A stretch of DNA of 64,000 nucleotides from the IMG/VR virus record IMGVR_UViG_3300042139_000023, one strand, 5' to 3'. The notes below the pieces were generated by a model that had not been told where the DNA came from, ran no database searches, and saw nothing but the letters and a program-made list of their open reading frames with translations. Source of the stretch: a virus. Taxonomy: Duplodnaviria > Caudoviricetes. Positions 361-5,301 of this stretch are shown here, in pieces. Positions within the stretch are counted from its first letter, which is position 1; each line of letters begins with the position of its first letter. The position numbers were made by a program, and so were the translations under genes.

Positions 361-558
361 ATGGCCAAGCCCGCGTACGCCCGCGAGGCGGCACAGGTGA
401 AGACGGCCCACCCGGATCTCGACGACGCCACGGCCCGGCGAGTCGCGGAGACCTACGTACAGGTCTCCCGTGACAGCGGTACGCCGCTTCCGGAGCTGCT
501 GGCCGAGTCGGTGCGAGCCGAGAACAGCTCGGCCGCAGGCAACCAGACCGGCGCCTGA
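361..558 (+). CDS. hypothetical protein (65 aa)
   Basis: GGAGG RBS at 352-356, ATG, GC3-rich codons. Confidence 0.6.
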   Translation: MAKPAYAREAAQVKTAHPDLDDATARRVAETYVQVSRDSGTPLPELLAESVRAENSSAAGNQTGA

Positions 559-572
559 CCGCAACATCCCTT

Positions 573-596
573 GAGGGGGCCCCGACGGGCCCCCTC
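573..596 (+). terminator. hairpin, putative terminator
   Basis: GAGGGGGCCC-CGAC-GGGCCCCCTC, perfect 10-bp stem. Confidence 0.6.
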
Positions 597-619
597 TGTC
601 GTACAGGAGATAAGTCGAC

Positions 620-1108
620 ATGTCGATGGCAGTTCTGTTCTACGGCTACAGCCTGGGCGTTCCCGACGACGGCGACTGGGCCATCAAGAACACGGACGAG
701 TTCGAGCCGGACTGGCTCACCGAGTACGAGGCGGCCCTGGAGAAGGATGACGACGGCGAGGGCTACGAGTTCTACATGCGCCGCGCCCTCCTGCTGGCCT
801 CCGGCGTCCCCGACGACCTGATCACCAGGGGCAACGCCGAGGCCACGCTGAAGGAACAGGGCCTGGAGGTCATCACCTTCGGGCACTCCAACACGCAGTT
901 CTACGGTCTGGCACTCGCGGGCTCCGTGTACGAGGCGGACGACTGGTCGCCGAAGTGCATTGACCCGAACTTCGAGTGGAACCCGAACATCCGCATCCCG
1001 GGCGTCGACTTCCCCGACGACGGCTACCTGCACAACGGCCTGCGCGCCCTGTCGATGGAGCCCGTCCAGGAGCGGGCCTCCTGGATCATCGCCCCTCGGG
1101 AGTACTAA
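620..1108 (+). CDS. hypothetical protein (162 aa)
   Basis: AGGAG RBS, acidic globular ORF with phage-like codon usage. Confidence 0.75.
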   Translation: MSMAVLFYGYSLGVPDDGDWAIKNTDEFEPDWLTEYEAALEKDDDGEGYEFYMRRALLLASGVPDDLITRGNAEATLKEQGLEVITFGHSNTQFYGLALAGSVYEADDWSPKCIDPNFEWNPNIRIPGVDFPDDGYLHNGLRALSMEPVQERASWIIAPREY

Positions 1109-1113
1109 AAGAC

Positions 1114-1143
1114 TTGCGATCCCCTCGCAGGATCCCGTAATGT
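1114..1143 (+). promoter_or_regulatory. sigma70/HrdB-type promoter of the RNA array
   Basis: TTGCGA (1114-1119), 18-nt spacer, TAATGT (1138-1143); predicted start near 1150-1151, exactly where RNA unit 1 begins. Confidence 0.7.
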
Positions 1144-1150
1144 TTTATCT

Positions 1151-1228
1151 GCACCCCGGAGCGTTCGTGCGAACGGTTACTTCATCCTGCGAAGAGAACA
1201 CCGGGCGCCATCTTGTTGGCCGGGGCGC
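1151..1228 (+). ncRNA. Y-RNA-like RNA unit 1 (short, no T/D arms)
   Basis: Ends pair (CCCCGG/CCGGGG); shares boxes CCGGAGCG..AACGGTTACTTC and CACCGGG..GTTGGCCGG with units 2 and 3; inner stem GCG-AA-CGGT/ACCG-GG-CGC; apical CTTC-ATCCTGC-GAAG hairpin. Confidence 0.75.
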
Positions 1229-1230
1229 GT

Positions 1231-1394
1231 AACAGAAGATCCAGAAGGGTTACCGGAGCGTTTTGAGAAACGGTTACTTCTTCTGGAAAAAGAAACTGAG
1301 GGCGGGTTCGAATCCCGTCGTTGCCGACGCTTGGCATAACTGGCAAACACCGGGTCTCGCCTAGTTGGCCGGTGGCTCCTCTGGATCTTCTGTT
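1231..1394 (+). ncRNA. Y-RNA-like RNA unit 2 with T arm and anticodon-arm-like hairpin
   Basis: Perfect 15-bp closing stem AACAGAAGATCCAGA (1231-1245)/TCTGGATCTTCTGTT (1380-1394); same conserved boxes; T arm GCGGG-TTCGAAT-CCCGT (1302-1318). Confidence 0.8.
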
Positions 1395-1399
1395 TCTCG

Positions 1400-1581
1400 G
1401 TGTGTGGGTGAGGTGCCCGGAGCGTCTTGGCAACGGTTACTTCACAGTGGAACCAAATGTTTCAGGTTCGAGTCCTGATCCGCGAGCTTGCTCGTGGATA
1501 GCTCAATTGGCAGAGCGTTGGTCGAGGAAGGTTCGAAAGAACCACCGGGGCCTATCTGTTGGCCGGGCACCCCACACATAC
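1400..1581 (+). ncRNA. yrlA: YrlA-like Y RNA unit 3 with complete circularly permuted tRNA module
   Basis: T arm TCAGG-TTCGAGT-CCTGA (1462-1478), acceptor-like stem TCCGCGAG/CTCGTGGA closed by CTTG loop (1479-1498), TA, D arm GCTC-AATTGGCA-GAGC (1501-1516), ACCAA (1452-1456)/TTGGT (1518-1522) in the anticodon-stem position; adjacent to a Ro60 gene. Confidence 0.85.
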
Positions 1582-1592
1582 ATCGAGACGCG

Positions 1593-1625
1593 CCCCCTGC
1601 TCCCATCCCGGGACAGGGGGTTTTT
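1593..1625 (+). terminator. intrinsic terminator between RNA array and Ro60 CDS
   Basis: CCCCCTG-C-TCCC-loop-GGGA-CAGGGGG followed by TTTTT. Confidence 0.75.
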
Positions 1626-1651
1626 GCGTTTCAAGGAAAGGGAGAAGGGTC

Positions 1652-3343
1652 ATGGCAACGTTCAACAAGCCGGGCGCGAAGGCGCGCGTCACGTCCCAGG
1701 TGAAGACGACCGGCACGACCAAGACGTTCGAAGGCGCGAGCGGTTTCACGCGCAGCCCGCTGTCGGACCTCTACCTGCTCTCGGTGTCCAACCTCGTCGG
1801 CAAGGACGCGTTCTACGAGCGCGCCAGCGACCGCAACGAGCGCTACGTGGACCTCCTGCACGGCACCGCCCTGCTGGAGCAGGAGCACGTCACGGCCATG
1901 CTGCCGTGGCTGCGCACCGACGGCTACATGCGCACCACGTCGCTCCTCGCGGCGGCCGAGGTCGCCAAGACGCTCTGCGACGAGCACCGGTACAAGGGCG
2001 TCGAGGACATGGTCGACGGGGTGCTCCAGCGTGCCGACGAGCCGGGCGAGTTCATCGCCTACTGGTTCTCGATCGCGGGCAAGGCGTGGCCGAAGCGCTA
2101 CCTGCCGGTCAAGAAGGGCCTGAAGCGGGCCGTCGCACGCCTGTACACCGAGTACTCGTACAGCAAGTACGACTCGCCGCGCCGGGCCTACCGGTTCGCC
2201 GACGTGATCGACATCGTCCACCCGGCGCCGACCGCCCAGTGGCAGTCGGACCTGTTCCGGCTGATCCTCGACCGGCGCCACGGGCACAGCGGCGCGATCA
2301 CGCCGACCCTGTCGATGACGCGCAACCAGCGCGAGTGGCGCCAGGCGGCTGCGGGTGTCCCGCGCAAGGCGTCGGCCGAGTACATCTACGGGTCGGGCCT
2401 GATCGCCCCGCAGGTGCTCAAGGACGCGGGCCTCACGTGGGAGGACGTGCTGTCGGAGCTGGGCGGCAAGGTCGACAAGAAGCTGCTGTGGGAGGCGATG
2501 ATCCCGACCATGGCGCCGGGCGCGCTGATCAAGAACCTGCGCAACTTCGACGAGGCCGGTGTCTCCGACGCCTCGGCCGACGCGGTGGCGAAGGTGCTCT
2601 CGGACAGCGAGCGCGTGCGGAAGGCCCGGCTCTTCCCGTACCGCTTCCTGTCGGCGTACCGCGCCCTGTCGTCGCTGCGCTGGGGCCACACCCTGGAGCG
2701 CGGCCTGGCGGGTTCGCTGGAGCTGGTTCCGACCCTGCGGGGGAAGACCCTGATCCTCGTGGACCGCAGCCCGTCCATGTTCCCGGGCATGTGGGGTTCC
2801 ACCCCGCACAAGGGGGACATCTCGCTGGCCGACCAGGCGGCGCTCTTCGGGGCGGCGCTGGCCGTGAAGGCGCAGGACGCCAAGCTCGTCGAGTTCGGTG
2901 GCGACCAGGCGCTCGGCGGCTGGAACAGCCGGGGTGGCGGCGCCGGTTCGCGCACGGTCAACGTGCCGCGCGGGGCGAGCGTCCTGAAGATCGTCGAGAG
3001 CTTCGGCCCGTCGATCAACGGGACCGACATCCCGCGCGCCGTGAAGGACAACTTCACGAGCGAGTTCAACCGCGTCGTGATCGTCACGGACGAGCAGTCG
3101 CGGCCGGGCTGGCTCCCGTCGAACATGGGCGGGCGCACCTACGGCATGCCGGAGACGCGGATCGACGACCTGATCCCGAAGACCGTTCCGGTCTACCTGT
3201 GGAACATGGCGGGCTACGCGGGCTCCATCCTGGAGACCGGTGGCACCAACCGTCACTGCTTCGGTGGCCTCTCGGACGCGAGCTTCGGCCTGATCCAGCT
3301 TCTGGAGCAGGGCAAGAACGCGCCGTGGCCGTGGATGAAGTGA
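1652..3343 (+). CDS. rsr: Ro60/TROVE-domain RNA-binding protein with C-terminal vWA (Rsr orthologue)
   Basis: MATFN..TFEGASGF..SDLYLLSVSN..FYE..WLRTDGYMRT..QRADEPGEFIAYW..LYTEYSYSKYD..LIKNLRNF..RLFPYRFLSAY, then vWA LILVDRSPSM..GTDI..VVIVTDEQ..WNMAGY; RBS then ATG 1652. Confidence 0.9.
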   Translation: MATFNKPGAKARVTSQVKTTGTTKTFEGASGFTRSPLSDLYLLSVSNLVGKDAFYERASDRNERYVDLLHGTALLEQEHVTAMLPWLRTDGYMRTTSLLAAAEVAKTLCDEHRYKGVEDMVDGVLQRADEPGEFIAYWFSIAGKAWPKRYLPVKKGLKRAVARLYTEYSYSKYDSPRRAYRFADVIDIVHPAPTAQWQSDLFRLILDRRHGHSGAITPTLSMTRNQREWRQAAAGVPRKASAEYIYGSGLIAPQVLKDAGLTWEDVLSELGGKVDKKLLWEAMIPTMAPGALIKNLRNFDEAGVSDASADAVAKVLSDSERVRKARLFPYRFLSAYRALSSLRWGHTLERGLAGSLELVPTLRGKTLILVDRSPSMFPGMWGSTPHKGDISLADQAALFGAALAVKAQDAKLVEFGGDQALGGWNSRGGGAGSRTVNVPRGASVLKIVESFGPSINGTDIPRAVKDNFTSEFNRVVIVTDEQSRPGWLPSNMGGRTYGMPETRIDDLIPKTVPVYLWNMAGYAGSILETGGTNRHCFGGLSDASFGLIQLLEQGKNAPWPWMK

Positions 3344-3355
3344 CGTAGGGCACAG

Positions 3356-3382
3356 GACCCCCTCCTCGCCGGAGGGGGTCTT
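3356..3382 (+). terminator. terminator after Ro60 gene
   Basis: GACCCCCTCC-TCGCC-GGAGGGGGTC-TT. Confidence 0.7.
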
Positions 3383-3446
3383 CGTGTTTCCATGCCCCTC
3401 AACTTTCGCTAGGATTGGATAAGTTGAGGAAAGGTAGGAGAGACGG

Positions 3447-3845
3447 ATGGCAAATTCATTCGAGACCGGCGGGGAAGTCCTGACGGTCGGCAGCAAGGTC
3501 GTCGTGTTCGACGGCAACAGCCAGCGCGAGCTGGCCATCACCAGCATCGGAACCAAGCGGGTCTTCATCGAGTCGGCGTACGGCTTCAGGCCGGTCCCCT
3601 TCAGCAAGGAGGACCGCACGTCCCAGCAGGGGGCCTACCACCAGTACTTCAAGACGCTGACCGAAGTGGCCCTGGAGCAGGAGCGGGCGGTCGCGAAGTC
3701 CCGCCTGCGCGACCTGGGGATCGAGGCCAGGATTTCCGGCCACGGCAAGGACGGCCTGGACCCCTACTCCGTGGACACGCTGCGCGAGATCGCCGGGATC
3801 CTGGAGGCTGCGAAGCTCAAGTTCGAGCAATCCCAACAAGGTTGA
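3447..3845 (+). CDS. hypothetical protein (132 aa)
   Basis: AGGAG RBS; upstream TAGGAT -10 at 3410-3415. Confidence 0.7.
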   Translation: MANSFETGGEVLTVGSKVVVFDGNSQRELAITSIGTKRVFIESAYGFRPVPFSKEDRTSQQGAYHQYFKTLTEVALEQERAVAKSRLRDLGIEARISGHGKDGLDPYSVDTLREIAGILEAAKLKFEQSQQG

Positions 3846-3868
3846 GGCATTTCGACCCGGGGCTGTGC

Positions 3869-3884
3869 TAAGCTGGCCTAGGCC
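3869..3884 (+). promoter_or_regulatory. -10 box plus GGCCTAGGCC operator
   Basis: TG-extended TAAGCT (3869-3874) immediately followed by palindrome 3875-3884. Confidence 0.7.
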
Positions 3885-3898
3885 GAAAGGGGAAGTAC

Positions 3899-4207
3899 GT
3901 GCAGACCTTCTACGACAGCACCTACGTGGCGAAGCACCTCGGCGTCAGCAAGTCGACCGTCATCAACTGGGTCGACCGGCCGACGGCGGCCTTCCCCATG
4001 CCTGCCGCATCGGTCCGCTACGGCGACCGGCCCCGTCAGGAGAACCCCTCCTGGACCGGCGACCAGCTCCCGCTTCTGCGCGAGTGGCTGGCACACCGGC
4101 TGGACCTGAGCGACCCGGCGGCGCACTGGGCCCTCATCGACAACGGAGGGCAGCCGCCCGGGGGTCACCAGGATCAGGGCGCCCTCTTCGACTCCGAAGG
4201 AACGTGA
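3899..4207 (+). CDS. helix-turn-helix DNA-binding protein (AlpA/excisionase-like)
   Basis: YDSTYVAKHLGVSKSTVINWVDR HTH; GAAAGGGG RBS, GTG start. Confidence 0.7.
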   Translation: MQTFYDSTYVAKHLGVSKSTVINWVDRPTAAFPMPAASVRYGDRPRQENPSWTGDQLPLLREWLAHRLDLSDPAAHWALIDNGGQPPGGHQDQGALFDSEGT

Positions 4208-4807: not shown

Positions 4808-5301
4808 AGGCCGAGGTGCGCACCTTCCCGGTCGAGTGGCTGGAGCGTCACCACATCGCCGTCGAGGGCATGAGCAAGCTCGTCGTGCACCGTGAGTTCG
4901 TCGAGCACCAGGAGTACGGCTCCCTGTGGTCCGTCGTCTTCATGGACGAGGGCCGCTACTGGAAGGCGTCCTACCTGGAGCCGAACACCTCTGCGGTCCA
5001 CGTCGACACCTGGGGCAACGACTTGGACATCCCGGCGGTCGAGGTCCGGCCGGTGCCGAAGTTCGTCACCGAGTGGGTCGCCACCACGTCCAGCCGGGGC
5101 GGCACGTGCAAGGCCGCCCTGACCGAGACATTCAGCGACAAGGTGCTCGGACCCTGTGGTCTCGCCGCGCCGTTCCTGCTGGCCGTCACCAAGGGCAACA
5201 AGGTCGAGAGCCTGGAGCGCTGCGTAGCACATGCGCATCAGATGATGTCCTCGCCCGAGACGTTCCCCCTGATCGAGGAGGTGCGGCGCAGGTGGCACTG
5301 A
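4804..5301 (+). CDS. hypothetical protein (165 aa)
   Basis: Coupled GTGA overlap; Cys/His near C-terminus. Confidence 0.65.
   Translation: MKAEVRTFPVEWLERHHIAVEGMSKLVVHREFVEHQEYGSLWSVVFMDEGRYWKASYLEPNTSAVHVDTWGNDLDIPAVEVRPVPKFVTEWVATTSSRGGTCKAALTETFSDKVLGPCGLAAPFLLAVTKGNKVESLERCVAHAHQMMSSPETFPLIEEVRRRWH

What the first reader, a model, noticed from the sequence alone, without database searches (positions are those of the whole stretch)
1114..3382. Phage-borne Ro60 with a polycistronic array of three architecturally different Y-like RNAs
Seen in sequence: three tandem units share two boxes (CCGGAGCG..AACGGTTACTTC and CACCGGG-N9/10-GTTGGCCGG). They fold into the same scaffold: closing stem, CCGG/CCGG, a GG bulge, AGC/GTT, a pyrimidine-rich internal loop, a covarying helix (GCG/CGC in unit 1, GAGA/TCTC in unit 2, GGC/GCC in unit 3), a conserved AA/GG tandem mismatch and CGGT/ACCG. 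Compensatory changes across the three paralogues are direct evidence for selection on RNA structure. Each scaffold carries a different payload: none, a T arm plus degenerate D region, or a full permuted tRNA plus a GNRA hairpin (GGTTC-GAAA-GAACC, 1530-1543). Established: bacterial Ro60 (Rsr) binds Y RNAs; YrlA RNAs mimic tRNA; in Deinococcus a Y RNA tethers Rsr to PNPase; in Salmonella rsr/yrl is co-encoded with rtcB and responds to tRNA damage; Ro60-Y pairs are already known in some phages. Inference: one Ro60 is programmed by three interchangeable adaptor RNAs, forming a modular RNP kit. I do not know of a three-unit graded array with this scaffold, but I cannot check the literature.
Basis: partly seen in the sequence, partly recalled or inferred. 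Interest (0 to 1): 0.9.

Follow-up and report, generated by a model that had tools for sequence, protein, structure and literature searches.

The report
Phage Ro60 with three Y RNAs
A large Streptomyces phage carries a gene for the ring-shaped RNA-binding protein Ro60 and, just upstream, three small partner "Y" RNAs that share one stem but carry different tops; this is a clean but ordinary example of an arrangement already known in bacteria and phages.

Summary
Three abutting units lie at 1150-1229, 1231-1394 and 1395-1588. A conserved promoter-like site sits at 1115-1144 and an intrinsic terminator at 1593-1625. A TROVE/vWA Ro60 gene follows at 1652-3343.

All three units share the described scaffold. 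A covariance model built only from unit-1 orthologues finds units 2 and 3 (E about 1e-7) and nothing else in the 64 kb. Orthologues from 7-10 distinct phage variants keep the helices through compensatory changes.

Unit 3 is a YrlA-type permuted tRNA mimic. Unit 2 carries a T arm. Unit 1 is a short hairpin.

The array itself is not unusual. I found arrays of 2-6 such units beside Ro60 in other actinophages (Satis, BRock, VanLee, Atuin) and in chromosomes of Actinomadura, Spirillospora and Nocardia. Published work already shows co-transcribed YrlA plus YrlB in M. smegmatis, a polycistronic Yrn2-tRNA-Yrn1 in Deinococcus, and two Yrls upstream of a Thermus phage Ro60. Earlier notes of this scan also report handle-sharing RNA arrays beside Ro60-like genes in other phages.

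Verdict: a real feature, and a new member of a known kind. Binding to Ro60 and the adaptor function are inferred, not shown. Rfam's YrlA model misses this clade, and GenBank records of relatives mislabel units as tRNA-Pro or tRNA-Cys.

The parts
1115..1144 (+). Promoter-like site TTGCGA-N18-TAATGT, containing the inverted repeat TGCGA/TCGCA, about 6 nt upstream of unit 1
   Evidence: Read from the sequence. It was not called by the strict consensus scan and occurs once in the 168-kb genome. It is nearly identical in Frankenweenie, Kela and JustBecause, and in L007 and in Satis, whose array and Ro60 differ. Promoter function is inferred.
1150..1229 (+). Y-like unit 1: the shared scaffold capped by a 4-bp hairpin with a 7-nt loop (short, YrlB-like)
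   Evidence: Fold and consensus fold of 7 variants (23 pairs, 1 with a double change). The model R1 was built from this unit.
1231..1394 (+). Y-like unit 2: long closing stem, the shared scaffold, a hairpin after UUACUUC, a tRNA-type T arm (GGGUUCGAAUCCC) and a further stem-loop
   Evidence: z = -5.3. Consensus fold of 9 variants: 48 pairs, 7 with compensatory double changes, mostly in the closing stem. R1 hit at E 4.6e-7.
1395..1588 (+). Y-like unit 3: long closing stem, the shared scaffold and a YrlA-type permuted tRNA module. Anticodon-stem equivalent 1452-1456/1518-1522, T arm 1462-1478, closed acceptor-like stem 1479-1498, U8A9 1499-1500, D arm 1501-1516, extra GNRA hairpin 1530-1543
   Evidence: Rfam YrlA 33.6 bits, E 1.8e-5, model positions 23-89. 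z = -5.3. 64 pairs, 8 with double changes, 99.8% of cells paired against 36-44% when partners are slid. A15:U48 Levitt pair present. R1 hit at E 2.1e-7.
1593..1625 (+). Intrinsic terminator (CCCCCUG...CAGGGGG followed by U5) between the array and the Ro60 ribosome-binding site
   Evidence: Conserved in all relatives. In Kela and JustBecause it precedes an RNA ligase gene instead of Ro60.
1652..3343 (+). Ro60/Rsr homologue (563 aa): TROVE region plus a vWA domain with MIDAS motif DRSPS at residues 371-375. The ribosome-binding site GGGAGAAGGG lies at 1640-1649
   Evidence: 92% identical to Frankenweenie gp147, annotated 'Ro-like RNA binding protein'.
3361..3388 (+). Terminator-like hairpin and T-rich tail after Ro60

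Best explanation
This is a phage Ro60 ribonucleoprotein module.

A single transcript starts at the conserved promoter-like site near 1115-1144. It runs through three abutting stem-closed RNAs and mostly stops at the terminator at 1593-1625. Read-through supplies the Ro60 mRNA, because only 26 nt with a ribosome-binding site separate the terminator from the ATG (inferred).

Host RNases cut the precursor at the long closing stems and release three Y RNAs (inferred). Each binds the phage Ro60 through the shared lower stem, the 'handle': CCGG/CCGG, a 2-nt bulge, AGCG/UGUU, an internal loop, a covarying helix, a tandem A.G mismatch, CGGU/ACCG and UUACUUC (inferred from co-location, from handle uniformity within a genome, and from published Y RNA biology).

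The upper parts differ: a small hairpin, a hairpin plus T arm, and a full YrlA-type tRNA mimic plus a GNRA hairpin. They would give the Ro60 particle different partners or gate it differently (inferred).

By analogy with Deinococcus, Salmonella and Thermus phage phiLo, the likeliest partner is host PNPase or a tRNA-handling or RNA-repair enzyme. The likely purpose is remodelling or repair of structured RNA, especially tRNA, during infection, possibly as counter-defence.
For: Shown here:
- Ro60 identity.
- Three paralogous units and no others.
- Helices kept by compensatory changes in 7-10 distinct variants.
- The tRNA-like module of unit 3 matches YrlA. Its 15:48 tertiary pair is A:U or G:C in 19 of 21 permuted modules across loci.
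- The array keeps its place upstream of Ro60 in Frankenweenie, Kela, JustBecause and several uncultured phages.
- In Kela and JustBecause an RNA ligase gene sits between the array and Ro60. The array therefore cannot be an N-terminal coding extension of Ro60, and this links the module to RNA repair.
- Handle sequences are uniform within a genome and differ between genomes with diverged Ro60: window CCGGAGCG/UGUUGGCCGG; Satis (Ro60 35% identical) CCGGUGCG/UGGUUAACCGG; BRock GAUGCG/CUUUUUCUAG; Spirillospora CCGGUGCG/UGAUCUCGG.
- Window and Satis share their flanks at 74-82% identity, while the array plus Ro60 cassette has diverged.

Weak hint: a 237-nt contig from a soil metatranscriptome library is identical to 1198-1434 and bridges both unit junctions. 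DNA carry-over is not excluded.

From the literature:
- M. smegmatis YrlA and YrlB lie upstream of rsr and come from one precursor; Deinococcus has a Yrn2-tRNA-Yrn1 precursor (PMC4201824).
- Thermus phage phiLo Ro60 binds two upstream Yrls and host PNPase (PMC12135203).
- A Ro60-like protein of phage Bas63 counters the ppl defence system (PMC11482910).
Against: - There is no direct evidence of discrete transcripts, of processing, or of Ro60 binding.
- Rfam YrlA does not reach its gathering score (33.6 against 69 bits).
- The published GNCGAAN0-1G motif is not strictly present. Only unit 1 has CGAA; the positional equivalent is NNCGGU.
- The promoter-like site fails a strict sigma-70 scan and has no second copy in the genome.
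- Unit 1 alone folds no better than shuffled sequence.
- The sequence variants are closely related, so the covariation counts rest on few independent events.
- The window's own genome (89% complete) has no homologue of the Kela ligase, so the repair link is not universal.
Confidence: 0.78

Rival explanations
1. The region is a cis-acting leader of the Ro60 mRNA. On this reading the structured units and the terminator form an attenuator that sets Ro60 expression, for instance through Ro60 binding its own leader, and no free RNAs are released.
For: The terminator lies 26 nt before the Ro60 start and there is no room for a second promoter. Array and gene are on the same strand and always upstream in this clade.
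Against: In Kela and JustBecause a 250-aa ligase gene separates the array from Ro60. In Atuin, Y-like cores lie on both sides of Ro60 among tRNA genes. In M. smegmatis such upstream RNAs are processed from the precursor and bound by Rsr as free RNAs (PMC4201824). The two readings are not exclusive.
Confidence: 0.1
2. The units act mainly without Ro60, as tRNA-part decoys or substrates. On this reading they soak up host tRNA-targeting nucleases or tRNA-modifying enzymes, and Ro60 only stabilises them.
For: Unit 3 is a close tRNA mimic. tRNA finders call parts of the units tRNA-Pro, tRNA-Cys or tRNA-Arg. The hairpins of units 1 and 2 have 7-nt loops with U at position 2 and a purine at position 6. 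Many relatives place the module inside tRNA clusters.
Against: The hairpin after UUACUUC is not anticodon-like in most other arrays. The conserved handle and its divergence in step with Ro60 argue that Ro60 binding is central. No nuclease target is known.
Confidence: 0.08
3. The units are degenerate or unusual tRNA genes, as annotated in GenBank for relatives, or they are part of a longer Ro60 reading frame that starts at TTG 1321 or 1559.
For: ARAGORN calls a 93-nt tRNA-Pro at 1395-1487. Frankenweenie and JustBecause records carry tRNA-Pro and tRNA-Cys there. The Ro60 frame is open back to 1321.
Against: No Rfam tRNA hit anywhere in the window. The T arm precedes the D arm and the acceptor is closed by a loop. 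The ARAGORN 'anticodon' falls in the scaffold helix. Substitutions are compensatory in helices rather than codon-like. A terminator and, in Kela, a whole gene lie between the array and Ro60.
Confidence: 0.03

Closest known systems
Mycobacterium smegmatis YrlA and YrlB with Rsr (Chen et al. 2014, PMC4201824)
   Same: An actinobacterial arrangement with several Y RNAs upstream of Ro60 on the same strand, made from one precursor. One is a permuted tRNA mimic (T arm, closed acceptor-like stem, D arm). Another is shorter with a possible T arm. The UUAC (YUAY) motif follows the Ro-binding region.
   Different: Here there are three units, not two, and they are encoded by a phage. The acceptor-like stem has 8 bp with a tetraloop (7 bp in M. 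smegmatis, where RNase P cleaves). Unit 3 has an extra GNRA hairpin. CGGU replaces CGAA in the 5' motif. Expression and binding are untested here.
Thermus phage phiLo Ro60 with Yrl1 and Yrl2 (NAR 2025, PMC12135203)
   Same: A phage-encoded Ro60 with multiple Y-like RNAs immediately upstream. The window protein matches the solved phiLo protein at E 2e-19.
   Different: The proteins are only about 23% identical. The phiLo Yrls are defined by a CGAA motif in an internal bulge and are not described as tRNA mimics. Binding to Ro60 and to host PNPase was shown for phiLo and not here.
Deinococcus radiodurans Yrn2-tRNA(Asp)-Yrn1 and the RYPER complex (PMC4201824)
   Same: A polycistronic precursor carrying more than one Y RNA upstream of rsr. 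The Y RNA acts as a tether between Ro60 and an effector (PNPase).
   Different: A different Y RNA lineage (Yrn), interleaved with a true tRNA. It is stress-induced in a bacterium.
Salmonella Typhimurium rsr-yrlBA-rtcBA and Rfam YrlA (RF02553; structure 6CU1)
   Same: The tRNA-like effector module of unit 3 aligns to model positions 23-89. An RNA ligase is a neighbour in some relatives.
   Different: The score is below the family threshold (33.6 against 69 bits). The lower stem of this clade lies outside the Rfam model. The neighbouring ligase is a divergent ATP-grasp type, not RtcB (PMC7824862 cites AYD81305.1). The RNAs lie upstream, not downstream, of Ro60.
Multi-unit Y-like arrays beside Ro60 in other actinophages and actinobacterial chromosomes
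   Same: The same scaffold plan and the G[N]UACUUC core, with a mix of short, T-arm and full tRNA-like units followed by a terminator and then Ro60. Satis has 3 units, BRock 4, VanLee 4, Atuin 6, Spirillospora 4, Nocardia jiangxiensis 5 and Actinomadura 2.
   Different: The handle sequence differs from genome to genome. I found no paper that describes these arrays as such.

Membership tests
Bacterial/phage Y RNA, YrlA subclass (Chen 2014; Rfam RF02553) | Encoded within about 4 kb of a Ro60 orthologue and on the same strand | tested here: met
   The units at 1150-1588 lie 64-500 nt upstream of Ro60 (1652-3343) on the + strand.
Bacterial/phage Y RNA, YrlA subclass (Chen 2014; Rfam RF02553) | The 5' and 3' ends pair into a long stem that carries the conserved Ro-binding region | tested here: met
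   The same lower stem occurs in all three units.
Bacterial/phage Y RNA, YrlA subclass (Chen 2014; Rfam RF02553) | GNCGAAN0-1G motif near the 5' end | tested here: inconclusive
   Unit 1 has UGCGAACG (7 of 8). Units 2 and 3 lack CGAA. In the Rfam alignment of a relative, the positional equivalent of GNCGAA is NNCGGU.
Bacterial/phage Y RNA, YrlA subclass (Chen 2014; Rfam RF02553) | YUAY motif that begins the variable-loop region | tested here: met
   UUAC is present in all three units within AACGGUUACUUC.
Bacterial/phage Y RNA, YrlA subclass (Chen 2014; Rfam RF02553) | Permuted tRNA-like module (T arm, closed acceptor-like stem, D arm) with tRNA tertiary pairs such as 15:48 | tested here: met
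   Met by unit 3 only (A15:U48). Unit 2 has only the T arm and unit 1 has none.
Bacterial/phage Y RNA, YrlA subclass (Chen 2014; Rfam RF02553) | Reaches the Rfam gathering score (69 bits) | tested here: not met
   33.6 bits. Relatives in other actinophages score 31-47 bits. The threshold appears to exclude this whole clade.
Bacterial/phage Y RNA, YrlA subclass (Chen 2014; Rfam RF02553) | Physically bound by Ro60 in vivo | not testable with these tools
   Needs a pull-down or gel-shift assay.
Short Y RNAs of the YrlB / Yrn2 type | Stem-closed hairpin with a small loop, co-encoded and co-transcribed with a YrlA-type RNA. The M. smegmatis YrlB has a possible T arm. | tested here: met
   Unit 1 (hairpin) and unit 2 (T arm) abut unit 3 between one promoter-like site and one terminator. 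Co-transcription is inferred. The metatranscriptome contig that bridges the junctions is only a weak hint.
Ro60 / Rsr (TROVE) protein | TROVE region followed by a vWA domain with a MIDAS motif | tested here: met
   Pfam TROVE 1.3e-14. PHROG 850 over residues 15-561. Match to PDB 9KOP/9L5Y at 2e-19. DRSPS at residues 371-375. The ring fold was not modelled.
Canonical tRNA gene | Cloverleaf in the order acceptor-D-anticodon-T, with a free 3' end, recognised by the Rfam tRNA model | tested here: not met
   No RF00005 hit in the window. The order is T, acceptor, D and the acceptor is closed by a loop. The ARAGORN call at 1395-1487 is an artefact.

The most novel reading that the evidence does not exclude
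Ro60 and the lower-stem handle of its Y RNAs diversify together as one swappable cassette. Each phage and each host would then have a private, non-cross-reacting Ro60/Y RNA recognition code: window CCGGAGCG/UGUUGGCCGG; Satis CCGGUGCG/UGGUUAACCGG; Streptomyces sasae chromosome CCGAUGCG/UCGAUCUCGG. The fast-changing upper parts would retarget the particle. For example, the T arm of unit 2 is lost in L007, and the 7-nt loops of units 1 and 2 vary only at their three central positions. Possible roles include acting as anticodon-arm-like decoys against host tRNA-directed defences.
Probability: 0.2. Interest if true: 0.6.

Novelty: new member of a known kind. Interest (0 to 1): 0.33.

Why it matters
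The finding gives a correct annotation for a locus that is unannotated or mislabelled as tRNA genes in several deposited Streptomyces phage genomes. It also shows that the Rfam YrlA model under-detects the actinobacterial and actinophage clade.

Close relatives (Frankenweenie, Kela, JustBecause, Satis) are cultured on laboratory Streptomyces strains. The three-RNA set, and the natural handle variants that track Ro60 divergence, therefore offer a practical system for two open questions. One is what a Ro60 recognises in its Y RNAs. The other is what the different upper modules recruit during infection.

It does not reveal a new kind of system.

Tried and rejected
- Rfam at gathering thresholds found nothing in the window.
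- A pattern scan of IMG/VR for CCGGAGCG-N(4-10)-AACGGTTAC gave 20 stretches of DNA. Only those from four contigs, those with three-unit arrays, are real relatives (L005, L007, L010/L011, L019). The 15 single-match stretches have no 3' box and no Ro60 nearby and no YrlA hit. They fit chance matches to a 17-base pattern in a very large collection.
- The promoter-like motif has no second copy in the genome, so recurrence cannot support it. The strict sigma-70 scan found no promoter in 600-4000.
- tblastn with the Kela RNA ligase found no homologue in the window's 168-kb record.
- RNA-library contigs. Only X17 gave an identical piece (1198-1434). X18 and X20 hold diverged relatives of unit 3 and parts of Ro60. 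X19 holds identical pieces of 19 letters within units 2-3 and one identical 206-letter piece within Ro60. X19 and X20 are probably DNA. Contigs cannot show ends, strand or level, and uncovered parts say nothing.
- The idea that the hairpin after UUACUUC is generally an anticodon-arm mimic did not hold across other arrays.
- The annual review by Sim et al. 2020 (PMC10870794) and the supplements of Chen 2014 are not held. I therefore could not check whether multi-unit actinophage arrays are tabulated there.
- No structure prediction or complex prediction was run. The protein family is clear, and the tool does not score protein-RNA pairs.
Full report
**What and where.** The window is part of an IMG/VR virus record of 168,372 bases, estimated 89% complete. 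Its closest cultured relatives are the 185-200 kb Streptomyces phages Frankenweenie (92.9% DNA identity over 1100-3400), Kela and JustBecause. The ORF at 1652-3343 encodes a 563-aa Ro60 homologue:
- Pfam TROVE 1.3e-14.
- PHROG 850 'RNA-binding protein' over residues 15-561, 1.4e-38.
- A match to the solved Ro60 of Thermus phage phiLo, 2e-19.
- A vWA MIDAS motif DRSPS at residues 371-375.

The relatives annotate the gene as 'Ro-like RNA binding protein'.

**Check of the observation.** The units abut one another at 1150-1229, 1231-1394 and 1395-1588.

Folding units 1 and 3 alone gives the described scaffold. Units 2 and 3 are far more stable than shuffled sequence (z = -5.3 each). Unit 1 is not (z = -0.7).

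The best test against chance is this. A covariance model built only from seven unit-1 orthologues finds unit 3 at E 2.1e-7 and unit 2 at E 4.6e-7. It threads their 89- and 65-nt inserts through the apical loop, and it finds nothing else in the 64 kb up to E = 10. The whole phage record has only these three copies. The alignment also shows the paralogue covariation in the middle helix: GCG/CGC, GAGA/UCUC and GGC/GCC.

**Orthologue evidence.** Cultured phages, IMG/VR and metagenomes yielded 7, 10 and 9 distinct variants of units 1, 2 and 3. Consensus folds reproduce the same scaffold in all three units.

For unit 3, 64 pairs are 99.8% paired across sequences. That compares with 36-44% when the 3' partners are slid by 1-3 columns. 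Eight pairs show changes on both sides. They lie in the closing stem, the scaffold (CCGG/CCGG to CUGG/CCAG in L007), the anticodon-stem equivalent, the acceptor-like stem and the GNRA hairpin (GGUUC/GAACC to GGCUC/GAGCC). Unit 2 has seven such pairs, mostly in its long closing stem.

The variants are closely related, so these are few independent events. They all point the same way.

**What the units are.** The T arm, acceptor-like stem and D arm of unit 3 align to positions 23-89 of Rfam YrlA (33.6 bits, E 1.8e-5, below the 69-bit threshold). Its order is:
- anticodon-stem strand (1452-1456)
- 5-nt variable loop
- T arm (1462-1478)
- 8-bp closed acceptor-like stem with a CUUG loop (1479-1498)
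- U8A9
- D arm with GG (1501-1516)
- the returning strand (1518-1522)

This is the YrlA layout of Chen et al. 2014 (PMC4201824) and Wang et al. 2018 (bioRxiv 10.1101/312249).

Across 21 permuted modules from 13 loci, the Levitt 15:48 pair is A:U or G:C in 19. This tertiary covariation is the one Chen et al. reported. The window has A15:U48, whereas Satis unit 3 has G15:C48.

An alignment of a relative to the full Rfam model shows two things. The box AACGGUUACUUC is the positional equivalent of the published GNCGAA(N)G plus YUAY motifs, with CGGU in place of CGAA. The lower stem of this clade lies outside the Rfam model.

Unit 2 carries a hairpin, a genuine T arm (UUCGAAU loop) and a further stem-loop without D-arm features. 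In the relative L007 this whole payload is a plain hairpin. Unit 1 carries only a 4-bp hairpin.

ARAGORN's 93-nt 'tRNA-Pro' is an artefact of these modules. So are the tRNA-Pro and tRNA-Cys features in the Frankenweenie and JustBecause records. The Rfam tRNA model finds nothing in the window.

**Transcription unit.** TTGCGA-N18-TAATGT (1115-1144) lies just upstream of unit 1. It is almost unchanged in every relative, even in Satis, whose array and Ro60 are very different. It failed a strict consensus scan and is unique in the genome, so promoter function is inferred.

A strong terminator (1593-1625) follows unit 3. The Ro60 start lies 26 nt further on, behind a good ribosome-binding site. Ro60 is therefore probably made by read-through.

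In Kela, JustBecause and two metagenomic relatives, a 250-aa RNA ligase gene sits between the terminator and Ro60. This is the divergent ATP-grasp ligase AYD81305.1 noted in PMC7824862. That placement rules out the array being an N-terminal extension of the open Ro60 frame. It also ties the module to RNA repair.

A 237-nt contig from a soil metatranscriptome library is identical to 1198-1434 and spans both unit junctions. It fits a precursor but could be DNA carry-over.

**How common this is.** Other actinophage Ro60 loci carry the same plan, with the core G[N]UACUUC:
- Satis: 3 units
- BRock: 4 units
- VanLee: 4 units
- Atuin: 6 cores on both sides of Ro60, among tRNA genes
- an uncultured phage contig, L032: 6 units
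- L040: 2 units

. So do chromosomal rsr loci:
- Actinomadura: 2 units
- Spirillospora: 4 units
- Nocardia jiangxiensis: 5 units
- Streptomyces sasae: at least 1 unit

. They fold into the same scaffold. The unit-1 model even reaches two Actinomadura units at E 3e-4 to 6e-4. All full tRNA-like units in these loci score 31-47 bits on Rfam YrlA, below threshold.

Published work already shows three comparable cases. M. smegmatis YrlA and YrlB (the latter with a T arm) are processed from one precursor upstream of rsr. Deinococcus has a Yrn2-tRNA-Yrn1 precursor. [quoted passage not shown] Thermus phage phiLo has two Yrls upstream of its Ro60 (PMC12135203).

Earlier notes of this scan also describe handle-sharing RNA arrays beside Ro60-like genes in other phages. 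I did not test those. A three-unit graded array is therefore a new member of a known kind, not a new kind.

**An observation worth keeping.** Within a genome, all units share one handle sequence. Between genomes the handle differs, in step with Ro60 divergence:
- window group: CCGGAGCG/UGUUGGCCGG
- Satis (Ro60 35% identical): CCGGUGCG/UGGUUAACCGG
- BRock: GAUGCG/CUUUUUCUAG
- Spirillospora: CCGGUGCG/UGAUCUCGG

. Window and Satis share their flanks at 74-82% DNA identity, while the array plus Ro60 cassette has diverged. This is indirect support that the handle is the Ro60 recognition element. It also suggests lineage-specific recognition, which could be tested by handle swaps.

**Mechanism.** Shown: the sequence, the structure conservation and the gene context. 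Inferred: one precursor, processing at the long closing stems, binding of all three RNAs to the phage Ro60 through the handle, and different partners for the three upper modules.

By analogy with RYPER in Deinococcus and Salmonella and with phiLo, host PNPase is the leading candidate partner. The tRNA mimic and the ligase neighbour point to tRNA or RNA repair. A Ro60-like protein of E. coli phage Bas63 counters the ppl defence (PMC11482910), so a counter-defence role is plausible. None of this can be tested with the tools here.

**Verdict.** Novelty is low to moderate and interest is about 0.33.

Noticed in passing
window 3447-3845 (+): The gene immediately downstream of Ro60 encodes a 132-aa protein matching Pfam Phage_ProQ_C_like (PF24203, 1.7e-16), so a second putative RNA-binding protein sits next to the module. 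The DNA is conserved in Satis (74% identity) and the gene is annotated as hypothetical in relatives.
   Followed up: partly
L002:4538-5290 and L003:4538-5290 (Kela, JustBecause); also L036: A 250-aa divergent ATP-grasp RNA ligase (PHROG 548, 1.4e-12) is inserted between the Y RNA terminator and Ro60 in the Kela lineage. It is absent from the window, from Frankenweenie and from the whole 168-kb record of the window's phage.
   Followed up: partly
L001:4298-4388; L003:4144-4214; L027:2704-2775: GenBank features 'tRNA-Pro(tgg)' (Frankenweenie gene 148), 'tRNA-Cys' (JustBecause gene 137) and 'tRNA-Arg(tct)' (VanLee) lie inside Y-like units and are probably misannotations. The same false tRNA-Pro is called by ARAGORN at window 1395-1487.
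   Followed up: partly
window 1184-1190 and 1283-1289, with alignments A4 and A3: The apical loops of units 1 and 2 have 7 nt. Among variants, unit 1 reads AU-NNN-GC with only the three central bases varying (CCU, CAU, CUG, UUG, UCU). Unit 2 reads CU-GGA-AA or CU-GCA-AA. This looks anticodon-loop-like but is not general in other arrays. The loop CUGCAAA recurs in Kela, L007, Satis, VanLee and Spirillospora units.
   Followed up: partly
L007:6798-6928: In one uncultured relative (Ro60 77% identical), unit 2 keeps the handle and closing stem but its T arm and following stem-loop are replaced by a simple hairpin. The payload of unit 2 is therefore evolutionarily labile.
   Followed up: no
G000:C1:145400-145711, about 1-1.3 kb beyond the window's left edge: The only two other tRNA-like genes of this phage lie a little over 2 kb upstream of the array: tRNA-Ile(gat) and an 85-nt odd tRNA. 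ARAGORN calls the latter Val(cac), and it is annotated 'tRNA-OTHER/Undet' in Frankenweenie and JustBecause.
   Followed up: no
L026:4995-5158 (Streptomyces phage BRock): A sub-threshold manA RNA match (49.7 against 55.2 bits, E 7e-10) lies between tRNA-Lys genes just downstream of the BRock Ro60. It is partly overlapped by an annotated 'collagen triple helix' CDS.
   Followed up: no
L025:2400-5300 (Arthrobacter phage Atuin): Six GUUACUUC-type cores lie on both sides of Ro60, interleaved with genuine tRNA genes, and one gives a sub-threshold YrlA hit at 5094-5152. The Y RNA units here are spread through a tRNA cluster rather than forming a compact array.
   Followed up: no
window 517-1226 and 3325-4200 against L024: The flanks of the module, including the upstream 162-aa ORF of unknown function (620-1108; no Pfam or PHROG hit) and the promoter-like site, are 74-82% identical to Satis. 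Units 2-3 and Ro60 are not. The module looks like an exchanged cassette.
   Followed up: partly
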